Shown here: piece after piece, positions 15,081-19,404 of the stretch | Layout of the letters: every line of letters starts with the position of its first letter | Position numbering within the stretch: position 1 is the first letter of the stretch | Assembly (NCBI RefSeq): GCF_009914755.1 | Contig: NC_060947.1 | Length of the DNA: 64,000 nt | Origin: the human T2T-CHM13v2.0 reference genome, Homo sapiens | Strand: one strand, 5' to 3' | Program-made: the position numbers and the translations under genes | The notes under the pieces: generated by a model | Databases searched by the model: none | What the model was told of the DNA's origin: nothing | Seen by the model: the letters and a program-made list of their open reading frames with translations, nothing else

Positions 15081-16090
15081 AAGTGTTATGCATATGCTGG
15101 CATATAATTTGTCTACTCTCCTGCAAATACCACTGGAAACTCAAATTACACAAAGTCTAATAAATCCAGGGAAGAGATTAAAGGAATAAATGAAGTAATC
15201 ACCCAGAAATTCTCCAATCAGAAAAAAATTTTGTGTTGCCTTAAACTCTCTTTTTAAAGCATATATTTATACCTTTGCTTATGTATTACCTATACTTGTG
15301 TATTTGTGACATATATAAAGTTATATATCCTAACTTTTCAATCTCACATCTGCTATCATACATCTCTTTTAGGATTCCACTCTTCATCACTTTTGTGTAA
15401 ACTTGAGTTTACCCCAATACCCAGACTCTTATCTGTTCTAACTACTATGTTTGTTCTAAGAAGCTGGTAACTCCACAGTAACTCCAGAGTAACTCGAGTT
15501 TCTCATGATATACAGAGCAAGGGACTGGAAGAAATCATGGGCCCTGGAGGCTGGACCTCCATGATGCATTTTGTGTCTAACTAAGAGACAATGATTGCCA
15601 AATATTTAGACATGAGACCGTTTATCCCAATTGAAGCCTTCCTTACAAATCTAATTTATAAGCATGAAGAAGTCTGAGCACTCAGTGAAGCAGGGACTGC
15701 AAGCCCAGAGTCCTTTCCACTCATTTCCCCTTCTTCCCCCTCAGGTCAGTGGGCCCTGTTACTCACAGAAATCGAGGGAGTATCCTAAGCACTACTGGGA
15801 AAGTTCAGTGCTAAAAGACACTTCCTCAGACACGGACTTCATCTAGAGTTGCTAGATATCCTGAATACACAGGATATGTACTCTATATGATTTTGTCATG
15901 CATCTTGTGTTGACTTTATCAGGAAACCCCAAATGTCCTGTATTTGGCTTTTTTAATTTAACAAGTTGCAAACATTCAACACTTAGAGTTACTTTTTCAC
16001 CACAGTAATCAGCAATTAAATTACTTAAGACAACATTAGCTGAAATTATACCTCGACAAATAAAGATCTGGGTTCTCATTCAGGTTTAGT

Positions 16091-16665
16091 TGAAGGAAAA
16101 TCAGAATCAGTGACTTAGAATTAAAGGAAATATTGATGGAAGGAAACGTCTGTTCTTTGCCAAAGTCCCAAGTCACGAACAAGTAACCACCATTAAATGA
16201 AATTACTAATCAGTATCATGAGCCTGTCAATGACAGCCTCACTCCAGTAACTAAGTTTCTGAAAGTGAGCAGATCAGTGACTGCCCCAAGACTTCTGAAA
16301 AGCAGCCAATCACTGACAAAGCTCTGGTCCCAAAAGGTAGCCAATCAGTGACAGCTGCTCACTTCTTGACAGAAGCAGTCAGAAAGTCTATCTGTTCACT
16401 GGCTTTGCTTCTGAAAGTCCACCAGAACACAGCAGCCTTAGTCTAGTGACCATGGAAACACAGCTGAAAGTCCGTCAGTCCCTAAACACTACCACTTCTG
16501 TACGTCTGCCAACCCCTGACACCCCAGACTAACCAAAACCTTATATAGGATTAGCTCTGGCTTTGTTTATGAAGTCCGTGCCTAACAAGTTCAGTTCTCT
16601 CTACGGGAAAAAGGGTAGTTCACCTTTTATTGCATCAGATATTCAATTCGTTAGTTAAGCTTACA
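16091..16665 (+). mobile_element. Old ERV-type solo LTR with CCAAT-rich U3 repeats (MER89/MER90/MER110-like, family uncertain)
   Basis: TG...CA ends (tgaaggaaaa...gcttaca), repeated cttctgaaag...agccaatca units, TATA-like cttatatagg near 16540; no clear TSD. Confidence 0.5.
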
Positions 16666-16742
16666 GCCTTTCCACCAGTCAATCCCTATTTACAAACTTG
16701 TTCAGACTTGTGAGTGACAGACACACTGGCCAGCTGTGAGAT

Positions 16743-17048
16743 ATTTATTTATTTATTTATTTTGAGACAGAGTCATGCTCTGTCACCCAAGCTGGAGTGC
16801 AGTGGCGCCATCTCAGCTCACTGCAACCTCCACCTCCTAGGTTCAAGCGATTCTCGTGCCTCAGCCTCCCAAGTAGCTGGGATTACAGATGTGCACCACC
16901 GCTCCCAGCTAATTTTTGTATTTTTAGTAGAGACAACATGTTTCACCATGTTGACCAGGCTGGTCTTGAACTCCTGGCCTCAAGTGATCTGCCTGCCTCG
17001 GCCTCCCAAAGTGTTGGGGACTACAGGCGTGAGCCACTGCACCTGGCC
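16743..17048 (-). mobile_element. AluSx/Sz-like SINE
   Basis: Full dimer with (ttta)n tail; TSD (ca/tg)gctgtgagat at 16731-16742 / 17049-17060. Confidence 0.95.
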
Positions 17049-17134
17049 TGGCTGTGAGATTTTCAAATTCAGTCTTTCATTCTTGCAATTTTTGGTATCA
17101 TCTCTCTTTATTTCATGTCTATTTGAACCTTGCG

Positions 17135-18837
17135 ATGCCCAAACACAAGTGCAAAAATGATGAAATTTATGAAAAGTTGACATCTATTAAATAAGGAAAA
17201 AGTCCTTTAAAAGCTTTTTGTGCAATACCCAATTGTTCATTCAATACAGAAAATTGTGGAAATTCAAACAATCATATATTATCAGCTGTGCATGAATTCC
17301 TCAGCTAGTTCCAAAGACAATGATAAAATAGCAAATTTTTAAATAACACAATGATAAAATAACACATTTAAATTAAGAAGACTATCACAATAGAAGTTGT
17401 AATGACTTTTCACACTGTATATAACCATCAGTCTTTCAACTCAAACTGGAAGCAAATTTTCAAGTGCCAAGACCAAATCTACTGCAATAATAATAATGAC
17501 AAAAAATAATAGTTTTATTTACTGTTACAACAATTATCAAACATCTAAATGCCTCACCTTTTTATACCATGGCCACAGATGCATATAATGACATTACAGA
17601 ATACATTTTTCCTCTGTGAAATTGTTTTTTCATAAAAAATACTTTCTCATCAGGCTGCTGTGAGTAAAGTTTTTGACAGATGCTATTTTAGAAACAATAG
17701 CTAATTTCCAGCCCTATCTAAAAAGCTAAGTGTTAATGATAACATGGTTAAAGTTGAAGCAAAGCATGCATGATTCTTTGATGAATGTTGGCTGTGTTGC
17801 CCATATTCTGCTTAATGCCTCTCAAAGAGCATCTGATGTCCTATATATTGGTATTGAAGTAATAGTCATAAAACAGCTCTCTTACTTCAGTCCTTACATT
17901 TTTTAACCTGAGAGATTATAGGATTTTTGTGATTTTGTTAGAATGCAAACTTTTTCAATTCCTATTAAAAAATCCATTGACTTTCTTGTACAAATGCATT
18001 TGAGAGAATATTTAATTTATTTGAAGCTCTGATGCCATATTAACCATATTTTGATTCTAAAGAAAAGGCCCTCAAAATTCGTGTCGGCTTTTAAGATTAG
18101 CTGCTGAGCAAAGCCTACTTATTTATTCTTCATCATTTTCAGTATCTCTCTAGCAATAACATTATATGCAATGAAAAAAAAGTATTATTGATGTAGTCCA
18201 TTGATTAAGAGAACTTGTTGAATGTGTTAAAGAATTGATGAAAAATGAATTGCTTTAAGTATCAAGGCTGTTTTTTCAAATGGACAACATTACTTGTGAA
18301 TAAAAAAAGAAATTTTGACCTGAAGTTGATAATTATTATGGCATTTGTCAAGCCTATCATTTTAATTGGATTTCACCACTTTAAGAATTTCATTTAGTAA
18401 CATGTATGTCACTAAGTATTCTTGCAGCATGGGACCAAGAAGACGGGGATAACAATTGATAACCATGTTTTCTTTTGATAGAGAACATTTTTTTTAAAAG
18501 TTAAGAGATACAACACAATTCTGAAGAATGGAAAAGTAAGCTGTGCCATGAAAGAATTATTTGCTTCATCAAAGCAAATTTGAAGAACAGTTCTTAGAAC
18601 TGTTAACTTTGGGCCAGTACATATTCAGTATACCAGCTCATAATGCTAATGTTGAGCATATTTTCTCATTAATGAATCTTCAAAGGGCAAAATAGTGAAA
18701 TAAGTTGGAAGGGACCTCTGTAGAAGCTACTATACAATGTAAATGGAACAAAGACTAACTGCAAGAAATGTTATAAGCAAATTCTGCAAAACAAGAAAGT
18801 GTTAAAGAGAGGTAAATCCTGAAGAAAATATAATTAA
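17135..18837 (+). pseudogene. Decayed hAT transposase
   Basis: Manual translation across stops and frameshifts: MPKHKCK...AFCAIPNCSF...HILSAVH (BED-like finger); EVVMTFHTVYNHQSFNS; KFSSAKTKSTAII; FYTMATDAYN (D 17578); GCVAHILLNA (CxxH 17793-17804); ERIFNLFEALMPY; YIFSIPAHNANVEHIFSLMN (E 18654, hATC dimerisation motif); ends KS*RKYN* at 18837. Confidence 0.88.
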
Positions 18838-18956
18838 AGAGAAAGGTAGATAGTTTAGAAATTTATAATTTATTTTAGATAAACATCAAATAATGTTTTA
18901 GTATAAGAATATCACATACATTTTTCCTTTATCTTGATGTGAATATGCACAGACAA

Positions 18957-19335
18957 TGTTATGGGCTGAAATATCTTTCTCAAAAATTCATGTTAAAGTT
19001 CTAACCCCCAGTACCTCATATTGTTACTTATTTGGAGATACGGTCTTAATTTCCTAAAGAGGTAATTAAATTAAAATAAGGTCATTAGGTTGGGCCCCGA
19101 TCTTTTATGACCAGAATACTAATAATAAAAGGAGATTAAGACATCTACACAAGAGTAAAGACACAGGGAGAAGATGGCATCTACCAGCCAAGGAGAGAGG
19201 CCTCAGAAGTAATCAACCTTGTTGACTCCTTGATCTTGGACTGCTAGCCTCCAGAATTGTAAGAAAATTAATTTATGATATTAAAGACACCCAGTCTGTG
19301 ATACTTTGTTATGGGAGCCCTAGCAAACTAATAGA
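18957..19335 (+). mobile_element. MLT1B-like MaLR solo LTR
   Basis: tgttatgggctgaa...gccaaggagagaggcctcagaag...gccctagcaaactaataga; perfect 5-bp TSD gacaa (18952-18956 / 19336-19340). Confidence 0.9.
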
Positions 19336-19404
19336 GACAATGGGAAATAATTCAAATTTAACTAGGCACCTTGCATTTTCATTTGCTATTTTTTGTAGCC
19401 CTAG

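What the first reader, a model, noticed from the sequence alone, without database searches (positions are those of the whole stretch)
15844..19403. Candidate autonomous parent of the MER53 MITE: full-length fossil hAT with MER53-like ends
Seen: TIR-like ends tagagttgctagat (15844) and tttgtagcccta (19403) enclose a complete transposase remnant. Against my recollection of the MER53 consensus, the last 55 nt (19349-19403, aattcaaatttaactaggcaccttgcattttcatttgcta...cccta) match the MER53 terminus at about 43/55. Established: MER53 is a short palindromic non-autonomous hAT element. I know of no autonomous partner for it in standard human repeat libraries, but cannot verify that here. Inference: this ~2.3 kb element (after removing LTR, Alu and MLT1B) represents the transposase-encoding family that mobilised MER53. 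The nested MLT1B makes it older than that eutherian LTR.
Basis: partly seen in the sequence, partly recalled or inferred. Interest (0 to 1): 0.8.

Follow-up and report, generated by a model that had tools for sequence, protein, structure and literature searches.

The report
Fossil hAT transposon, likely MER53 parent
This is a dead, full-length copy of an ancient, low-copy cut-and-paste (hAT) transposon whose ends match the abundant human mini-transposon MER53, so it probably supplied the enzyme that spread MER53; this is useful bookkeeping for repeat annotation, not a new kind of biology.

Summary
Window 15844-19403 is one decayed, end-to-end copy of a hAT transposon family of about 2.87 kb. 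At least 33 other loci carry the family. Only two later insertions interrupt the window copy: an Alu (16743-17050, TSD GCTGTGAGAT) and a high-copy LTR of about 378 bp (18957-19334, TSD AGACAA). The MER53-like part is not a separate insertion. Eleven other loci continue into the same terminus, and three full-length copies carry 8-bp target duplications (8/8, 6/8, 5/8). The family shares three things with MER53: the TIR TAGGGTTGCCAG, a subterminal motif, and about 156 bp at the 3' end. The coding remnant (17135-18749) is colinear with residues 1-595 of intact 628-aa hAT transposases of the FAM200/ZBED5/GTF2IRD2 type. The "transposase-bearing partner of MER53" reading is therefore supported. Mobilisation itself is inferred. 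I could not check whether Dfam or Repbase already list this family.

The parts
15844..15857 (+). 5' terminal inverted repeat (TAGAGTTGCTAGAT)
   Evidence: 12/14 to the MER53 TIR TAGGGTTGCCAGAT. The family consensus starts here, cons 1 = 15844. Other copies start TAGGGTTGCCAG/TAGGGTTGCTAG at the same point.
15844..16090 (+). 5' subterminal region carrying the (A/G)TCCTGTAT motif (e.g. 15935-15943) and a small palindrome (15853-15863 / 15870-15880)
   Evidence: The motif occurs 5 times in the first 105 nt of the family consensus, once in the last 36 nt, and twice in MER53. The inverted repeat is I2. Eight other loci match this stretch.
16091..16742 (+). It holds four 25-nt direct repeats at 16257-16352 and 16496-16520; the second and third contain CCAATCA(C/G)TGAC.
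   Evidence: Only 10 genome candidates, 5 of them beside other family copies. 11 of 26 related sequences match inside it, and 7 span a supposed junction. One HSP joins cons 1-897 to window 15844-16728. The repeats are D1.
16743..17050 (-). Nested Alu insertion with 10-bp TSD GCTGTGAGAT (16733-16742 and 17051-17060)
   Evidence: SRP/Alu-type Rfam matches at 16762-17047 on the minus strand. TSD 10/10. NCBI masks 16736-17054 (hub note).
17135..18749 (+). Decayed hAT transposase gene, with frameshifts and stops. Landmarks: zinc-finger-like N-terminus (about 17195-17302, His at 17273 and 17291), first Asp of the D-x-S-N-H block (17578), G-C-x-A-H block (17790-17804), catalytic-type Glu of N-A-N-V-E (18654).
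   Evidence: tblastn places P0010 (628 aa) residues 1-595 on 17135-18749, with best HSPs at E 1e-11 to 1e-12. The C-terminal block profile (A1, which includes window 18552-18692) against the homologue profile A3 gives hhalign 99.5%, E 2.5e-22. The A3 profile hits Hermes transposase at E 4e-5.
18862..18956 (+). Inner part of the 3' region homologous to MER53; it continues at 19341
   Evidence: The last 158 nt of the spliced element align to MER53 positions 33-193. The family consensus against MER53 gives 126/167.
18957..19334 (+).
   Evidence: 4362 first-look candidates; all 40 scored hits are 72-77% identical and mostly full length. TSD 6/6.
19341..19403 (+). 3' terminus with the MER53-like terminal 55 nt and the 3' TIR (...TAGCCCTA)
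   Evidence: 43/55 to the MER53 arm. nhmmer E 7.7e-5. cons 2804-2872 aligns to 19335-19403 at 81% identity, E 1.5e-13.

Best explanation
Window 15844-19403 is a single, full-length, long-dead insertion of a low-copy hAT DNA transposon. The crude family consensus is about 2.87 kb, and at least 33 other loci in this genome carry the family.

Anatomy of the family:
- 12-14-bp TIRs, TAGGGTTGCCAG.
- Repeated subterminal (A/G)TCCTGTAT motifs.
- About 1 kb of 5' non-coding sequence.
- One gene for a transposase of roughly 570-630 aa with an N-terminal zinc-finger-like motif, belonging to the FAM200/ZBED5/GTF2IRD2 (Buster/Charlie-like) branch of hAT.
- A 3' end of about 156 bp that is colinear with positions 33-193 of MER53.

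It moved by cut-and-paste and made 8-bp target duplications. MER53 carries the same TIR, the same subterminal motif and the same 3' sequence, so MER53 is best read as this family's non-autonomous derivative. MER53 would have been amplified in trans by this family's transposase in early eutherians. After insertion, the window copy received an LTR and an Alu and decayed to about 74-81% identity with the crude consensus.

Shown: the anatomy, family membership, shared ends, TSDs in other copies, and hAT homology. Inferred: transposase binding to the shared motifs, and trans-mobilisation of MER53.
For: Family and full length:
- The 1.9-kb interior finds 70 matches in about 30 other loci at 64-79% identity. 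The 5' 247 nt finds 8 other loci, 5 of them beside those copies.
- The window copy covers consensus positions 1-2872 in three colinear HSPs, broken only at the Alu and the LTR.

Shared ends with MER53:
- HMM hit at E 7.7e-5; 43/55 and 12/14.
- The right 158 nt align to MER53 33-193. Consensus against MER53 is 126/167, with the terminal 60 nt nearly identical.
- 11 of 17 distinct loci align across the LTR site into the terminus, and 8 are hit by the MER53 HMM.
- Right ends of L005, L011, L013, L004 and L020 read ...ATTTGCTAAATCTGGCAACCCT(A/G/C/T).
- Left ends of L049, L050, L051 and L055 carry the TIR.
- The subterminal motif is shared.

Transposition as one unit, shown by TSDs:
- C10 copy TTTGTAAG/TTTGTAAG, 8/8.
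- C2 copy TGAGGGTT/AAAGGGTT, 6/8; C5 copy TGTTTGGG/TATTTAGC, 5/8.
- MER53 copies also show 8-bp TSDs: 4 of 20 at 5/8 or better against 4.7% in controls, permutation p 0.018.

hAT identity:
- The profile of 14 unaltered ORF fragments (A2) finds 160 proteins at E<=1, best 7.7e-26, mostly about 620 aa.
- 2 of 10 tested homologues pass the Pfam cut-off for Dimer_Tnp_hAT.
- All 120 listed proteins hit the family consensus. P0010 aligns with residues 1-623.
- The atlas names the clade FAM200-ZBED5 / FAM200-GTF2IRD2-like / DUF4371 / Dimer_Tnp_hAT.
- The homologue profile hits Hermes transposase at E 4e-5. A1 against A3 gives 99.5%.
Against: - The window copy itself has no recognisable TSD, 2/8.
- The 14-nt TIR is not significant on its own in the window.
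- No single ORF piece from the window or from other copies hits Pfam (0 relevant families in 8 and 22 pieces).
- The C-terminal fragment profile alone finds nothing in the PDB.
- My majority consensus has no uninterrupted ORF, so the word 'autonomous' rests on colinearity with intact homologues.
- The 5' end of the family resembles MER53 only over about 14-37 nt. Both MER53 arms look like the family's 3' end, so MER53 is not a plain internal-deletion product.
- Divergence figures are not comparable enough to show co-activity. Family copies are 73.6% identical to a crude consensus. The 20 MER53 copies are 82.1% identical to theirs, but they were chosen as the best mir-1302 hits.
- Trans-mobilisation was not and cannot be shown here.
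Confidence: 0.85

Rival explanations
1. The element is a copy of a family already in Dfam/Repbase (BLACKJACK, EuthAT-1/-2, a MamRep entry or similar), and the finding is ordinary annotation. The relation to MER53 may or may not be recorded there.
For: - The human repeat libraries are very complete. Kojima 2018 (PMC5753468, Table 5, passages read) lists BLACKJACK, EuthAT-1, EuthAT-2, EuthAT-2B, MamRep1894, MamRep38 and others under hAT.
- The family TIR TAGGGTTGCCAG differs at 2 of 12 positions from the TIR TAGGGTGACCAG of a MER81-type MITE. PMC9409130 assigns MER81 to hAT-Blackjack.
Against: - That MER81-type MITE shows no similarity to the family consensus or to MER53 beyond chance short words (best E 3.5 and 0.23). 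The family is therefore not the MER81 parent.
- RepeatMasker labels MER53 plain 'DNA_hAT' (PMC9409130) and Repbase lists it under Mariner/Tc1 (PMC5753468). That would be odd if a coding partner had been linked to it.
- Of 9 held papers containing both 'MER53' and 'autonomous', the passages I read in 5 name no autonomous partner.
- No repeat library could be searched, so this rival is simply untested.
Confidence: 0.5
2. The MER53-like 3' end is an independent MER53 copy that happened to insert at the edge of an unrelated hAT fossil.
For: - The window copy has no TSD to tie its two ends together.
- MER53 is abundant: 78 of 81 scored mir-1302 matches pass the cut-off.
Against: - The same 3' end follows the same interior in 11 of 17 distinct other loci.
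- Copies on C10, C2 and C5 have 8-bp TSDs outside the MER53-like terminus and outside the 5' TIR.
- The 5' TIR of the family is itself the MER53 TIR.
- Only MER53 positions 33-193 are present, never a complete MER53 with its own flanking duplication.
Confidence: 0.02
3. An ancestral master copy of an already MER53-compatible hAT element captured a 5'-truncated MER53 near its 3' end. On this reading the family is a MER53 'host' rather than the source from which MER53 arose, and the direction of descent is reversed.
For: - Both MER53 arms resemble the family's 3' end rather than its 5' end.
- The family's 3' 170 nt fold weakly (-11.8 kcal/mol), whereas MER53 is a near-perfect palindrome (-78.1 kcal/mol).
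Against: - The family's own 5' TIR and its 5' subterminal motifs already match MER53. The same transposase would serve both, whichever came first.
- No copy with a different 3' end was seen among the right ends examined (19 loci; 6 were truncated or unalignable).
Confidence: 0.15

Closest known systems
MER53 (193-bp palindromic MITE; source of the mir-1302 family, Rfam RF00951)
   Same: - TIR TAGGGTTGCCAG.
- The (A/G)TCCTGTAT subterminal motif.
- About 156 nt of 3' sequence, with the terminal 60 nt nearly identical.
- 8-bp TSDs.

   Different: - MER53 has no coding capacity and is a near-perfect palindrome.
- Its first 55 nt or so mirror the family's 3' end, not its 5' end.
- No mir-1302 match is found in the window element at E<=10.
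hAT-Blackjack group (BLACKJACK; MER81, the source of mir-584, RF01016)
   Same: Short TAGGGT..CCAG TIRs: 10 of 12 positions are shared with a MER81-type copy at C2:130045679-130045790. Both are ancient eutherian hAT fossils.
   Different: No sequence similarity beyond the TIR between that MITE and the family consensus or MER53. The BLACKJACK consensus itself was not available, so identity with it is neither shown nor fully excluded.
Buster/Charlie-type hAT transposases and their domesticated relatives (FAM200, ZBED5, GTF2IRD2, EPM2AIP1; Pfam PF27046, PF27073, PF14291, PF05699)
   Same: The transposase remnant is colinear with intact 620-630-aa members. The crude family consensus is 39-55% identical to the best twelve. 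It shares their conserved blocks: D-x-S-N-H, D-N, G-C-P-A-H, R-W-L, N-A-N-V-E-R-x-F-S.
   Different: All human copies of this family are riddled with stops. The only open human frames hit by P0010 are distant, at 23-24% identity (C6:28.44 Mb and C4:15.67 Mb). By recalled map position only, these would be ZBED9/SCAND3 and FAM200B.
Hermes transposase of Musca domestica (PDB 2BW3, 4D1Q, 6DWW, 8EDG)
   Same: The C-terminal hAT region holding the catalytic Glu aligns. The profile of 40 homologues hits it at E 4e-5 to 9e-5, profile positions 536-598 (533-598 in the 6DWW chain) against Hermes 471-533 in the 4D1Q chain's numbering.
   Different: Only that stretch is detectable by sequence. A single homologue (P0010) finds nothing in the PDB.

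Membership tests
hAT superfamily of DNA transposons | 8-bp target-site duplication | tested here: met
   Met for the family: three full-length copies at 8/8, 6/8 and 5/8. Not visible in the window copy itself, 2/8.
hAT superfamily of DNA transposons | Short (about 10-25 bp) terminal inverted repeats starting (C/T)AG | tested here: met
   TAGGGTTGCCAG at the left ends and, reverse-complemented, at the right ends. The window copy has 12/14 on the left and a degraded right TIR.
hAT superfamily of DNA transposons | Transposase with the hAT C-terminal dimerisation/catalytic region (Pfam PF05699) and the conserved D, D, E and C-x-x-H blocks | tested here: met
   The chain of evidence runs from the window and other copies to profiles A1/A2, then to 160 homologues. 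PF05699 is above cut-off in P0029 and P0084, 2 of 10 tested. Hermes is hit at E 4e-5. A1 against A3 gives 99.5%. Direct Pfam scans of the decayed pieces found nothing. The labelling of blocks as catalytic is recalled knowledge.
Autonomous partner of MER53 | Same TIR and subterminal sequences as MER53, present in many independent copies | tested here: met
Autonomous partner of MER53 | Complete transposase coding capacity in the family | tested here: inconclusive
   The consensus is colinear with residues 1-623 of a 628-aa intact homologue. My crude majority consensus still carries stops and frameshifts.
Autonomous partner of MER53 | Activity at the same time as MER53 | tested here: inconclusive
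   73.6% against 82.1% identity to the respective consensus, but the samples and consensus quality are not comparable. No other mammalian genome was at hand.
Autonomous partner of MER53 | Its transposase excises and integrates MER53 | not testable with these tools
   Needs a reconstructed enzyme and a transposition assay.
BLACKJACK (hAT-Blackjack) | Termini shared with its MITEs (MER81/MER94/MER63) | tested here: not met
   A MER81-type copy was identified through mir-584 (RF01016, E 6.6e-10) and PMC9409130. It shares only 10 of 12 TIR positions and nothing else with the family or with MER53. The BLACKJACK consensus itself was not available.
Tc1/mariner (Repbase's class for MER53, PMC5753468; 'TA' TSD in PMC2996404) | TA target duplication and a mariner-type transposase | tested here: not met
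   8-bp duplications flank TAG...CTA in MER53 copies and in the long copies, so the 'TA' is part of the TIR. The cognate coding sequence is hAT.

The most novel reading that the evidence does not exclude
This low-copy 2.87-kb element is the so far unassigned autonomous partner of MER53. It is a Buster/Charlie-clade hAT with Blackjack-like TIRs. If so, it settles the standing conflict between Repbase (MER53 = Mariner/Tc1, TA duplication) and RepeatMasker (MER53 = unplaced hAT). It also identifies the ultimate source of the placental mir-1302 microRNA family. MER53 would then be an unusual MITE in which both arms derive from the 3' end of its parent.
Probability: 0.4. Interest if true: 0.45.

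Novelty: new member of a known kind. Interest (0 to 1): 0.35.

Why it matters
MER53 has thousands of copies, gave rise to the placental mir-1302 family (PMC2996404), and is bound by at least one KRAB zinc-finger protein (PMC13444102). Despite that, the two main repeat databases file it under different superfamilies.

A coding partner with the same ends and 8-bp duplications fixes MER53 as hAT and places it in the FAM200/ZBED5/GTF2IRD2-like branch. It also gives a concrete enzyme to reconstruct for testing how a palindromic MITE is mobilised.

For genome annotation, it shows that about 575 bp here, and in sister copies, belong to the transposon and are not an LTR. None of this changes general understanding of transposons. 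It is a tidy addition if it is not already curated.

Tried and rejected
- Pfam scans of single ORF pieces gave only chance-level hits: 8 from the window and 22 from other copies.
- A PDB search with the C-terminal fragment profile A1 found nothing relevant. The same was true for P0010 alone.
- I fetched 11 human loci through PF05699 and ran tblastn with the 9 longest open frames of at least 100 aa against the copies. There were no hits below E 0.28. The family is therefore not close to the ZBED1/4/6-, ZMYM1- or THAP12-type genes; those gene names are inferred from recalled map positions.
- An Rfam scan of 15000-20500 found no mir-1302 match at E<=10.
It was replaced by the 2872-nt consensus.
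- Locus L076 (C1:81.999 Mb, a strong P0010 hit) was fetched in the hope of finding BLACKJACK. It is only a fragment of about 540 bp without recognisable ends.
- Pace & Feschotte 2007 is not held. Giordano 2007 does not mention MER53 in its main text; its supplements were not opened. A search for 'EuthAT' gave nothing descriptive.
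Full report
**What is at the coordinates.** No repeat library is held, so I rebuilt MER53 from the genome itself.
- PMC2996404 (passages) states that the mir-1302 family derives from MER53, a 193-bp palindromic element.
- Rfam RF00951 found 81 scored matches in this genome, 78 above the cut-off.
- The 20 best loci, aligned with flanks, gave a 193-nt majority consensus with TIR TAGGGTTGCCAGAT.
- An HMM of it hits the 64-kb window once, at 19349-19402, E=7.7e-5.
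The left 14 nt match 12/14.
- The 14-mer alone is not above chance: 4 sites with up to 3 mismatches against 5.7 expected. The case rests on the longer alignments.

**Nested insertions: two real, one wrong.**
- The Alu (16743-17050, minus strand) is flanked by GCTGTGAGAT on both sides.
- The LTR (18957-19334) is flanked by AGACAA on both sides. It belongs to a very abundant family: 4362 first-look candidates, and all 40 scored hits are 72-77% identical. The name MLT1B is recollection and was not tested.
It has only 10 candidates genome-wide, and 5 of them lie directly beside other copies of the same transposon.
- With that stretch left in, 11 of 26 related sequences match inside it, and 7 of them run across one of the supposed junctions.
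- A consensus seeded this way is 2872 nt long. The window copy covers positions 1-2872 in three colinear pieces: 15844-16728, 17049-18957 and 19335-19403, at 74-81% identity.
- The stretch holds four 25-nt direct repeats; the second and third contain CCAATCA(C/G)TGAC.

**A multi-copy family with MER53 ends.**
- The interior (17061-18956) finds 70 matches in about 30 other loci at 64-79% identity. It also finds four 44-54-nt matches at 85-89% in the MER53-like part.
- The 5' 247 nt finds 8 other loci, 5 of them belonging to those copies.
- In 11 of 17 distinct loci the alignment continues across the point where the window carries the LTR and into the MER53-like terminus. The MER53 HMM hits the 3' ends of 8 loci.
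- Right ends read ...ATTTGCTAAATCTGGCAACCCT-.
- Left ends of L049, L050, L051 and L055 start with the TIR.

**Target-site duplications.** Three full-length copies have 8-bp duplications outside both TIRs:
- C10:53.843-53.851 Mb, TTTGTAAG/TTTGTAAG.
- C2:35.55 Mb, TGAGGGTT/AAAGGGTT.
- C5:116.30 Mb, TGTTTGGG/TATTTAGC.

The window copy itself shows no duplication (2/8). For so old a copy that is unremarkable, but it does mean this locus alone could not have carried the argument.

**Relation to MER53 in detail.**
- The last 156 nt of the family consensus align to MER53 positions 33-193 at 126/167. The terminal 60 nt are nearly identical.
- The 5' end shares only the TIR and an ATACAGGA-type motif.
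- (A/G)TCCTGTAT occurs five times in the first 105 nt of the family consensus, once in the last 36 nt, and twice in MER53.
- MER53 folds as a near-perfect hairpin (-78.1 kcal/mol). The family's 3' 170 nt do not (-11.8 kcal/mol).
- MER53 is therefore not a plain internal deletion. Both of its arms look like the parent's 3' end. Either direction of descent needs the same transposase.
- MER53 copies also carry 8-bp duplications: 4 of 20 at 5/8 or better against 4.7% in controls, p=0.018. This count used automatic boundaries and includes several truncated copies.

**Coding capacity.**
- Single ORF pieces hit nothing in Pfam or in the PDB.
- A profile of 14 unaltered fragments around G-C-P-A-H-I-L-H-N (A2) found 160 proteins at E<=1 among 8000 scored candidates. 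The best was 7.7e-26, and most are about 620 aa.
- Dimer_Tnp_hAT passes its cut-off in 2 of 10 homologues tested.
- P0010 (628 aa) aligns with residues 1-595 on window 17135-18749 and with residues 1-623 on the family consensus. All 120 listed proteins hit that consensus, the closest at 55% identity.
- The atlas names the clade FAM200-ZBED5 RNase-like, FAM200-GTF2IRD2-like, DUF4371 and Dimer_Tnp_hAT.
- A profile of 40 homologues hits Hermes transposase at E 4e-5.
- The C-terminal fragment profile, which includes window 18552-18692, matches that same region at 99.5% probability.
- At the columns conserved in 53 homologues, the window keeps the Asp at 17578, the Cys and His at 17793 and 17802, and the Glu at 18654. 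It has lost others, for example Asp to Gly at 17850 and a stop at 17904.
- Every strong human match to P0010 is full of stops. I saw no domesticated descendant of this family.

**Is it already known?** I could not test this.
- Kojima 2018 (PMC5753468, passages) lists MER53 under Mariner/Tc1 and names Blackjack, Charlie, Cheshire, Arthur and Zaphod as the autonomous hAT families.
- PMC2996404 repeats "TA" duplications and a mariner relation.
- PMC9409130 gives the RepeatMasker label DNA_hAT/MER53, and hAT-Blackjack for MER81/mir-584.
- Searches for 'MER53' (33 papers) and for 'MER53' plus 'autonomous' (9 papers) turned up no description of a partner. I read passages in 5 of the 9 and saw the other 4 only as listings.
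- To probe the Blackjack alternative I searched for short MITEs with TAGGGTNNCCAG ends. One of the 4 loci matches mir-584 (RF01016, E 6.6e-10), so it is MER81-type. It shares 10 of 12 TIR positions with the family and nothing else.
- The family therefore has Blackjack-like TIRs but is not the MER81 parent. Comparison with the BLACKJACK, EuthAT or MamRep consensus sequences remains to be done.

**Verdict.** This is a real, ordinary fossil transposon, correctly spotted. Its family is the best candidate for the MER53 transposase source. The 8-bp duplications and the hAT coding partner argue against the Mariner classification of MER53. Interest is modest and depends on whether curated libraries already hold the link.

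Noticed in passing
window 16257-16352 and 16496-16520: Four direct repeats of about 25 nt, spaced 35-36 nt for the first three. The second and third contain CCAATCA(C/G)TGAC. They lie in the element's 5' non-coding region and could be promoter or transposase-binding repeats. The crude family consensus keeps two near-copies of the motif.
   Followed up: partly
P0110; family copies at G000:C10:38133562-38134174 and C10:43430618-43436165: A 158-aa pig protein model named zinc finger protein 33B (KRAB domain) ends in 47 residues that match this transposon family at 53-55% identity. That suggests exonisation of a copy. By recalled map positions only, the two human chromosome 10 copies may lie in or near ZNF33A and ZNF33B.
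   Followed up: partly
L072, L074, L075 (C1:160080237-160080357, C4:44210692-44210807, C12:45056127-45056238): Three MER53 copies of only 112-121 bp have both TIRs perfect. These are shortened MER53 variants that lack part of the central hairpin.
   Followed up: no
L010 (C11:33.92 Mb): An internally deleted copy of the family. It keeps the 5' 222 nt, about 145 nt of the 16163-16308-equivalent stretch and the 3' 365 nt, with an Alu inside. This is a natural deletion derivative of the long element.
   Followed up: partly
L007/L009 (C5:142.55 Mb): This copy carries a second, inverted partial duplicate of the G-C-P-A-H block on the opposite strand (L007:1180-1311). That points to a local rearrangement or a nested second copy.
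   Followed up: no
literature: The databases disagree on MER53. Repbase files it under Mariner/Tc1 (PMC5753468) and RepeatMasker under hAT (PMC9409130). PMC13444102 reports that ZKSCAN4 tends to bind MER53.
   Followed up: partly
window 19474-19487: About 75 nt downstream of the element's 3' end lies GGCTTCAT, which resembles the left flank GGACTTCATC. It is probably chance, but it is the only TSD-like echo near the window copy.
   Followed up: no
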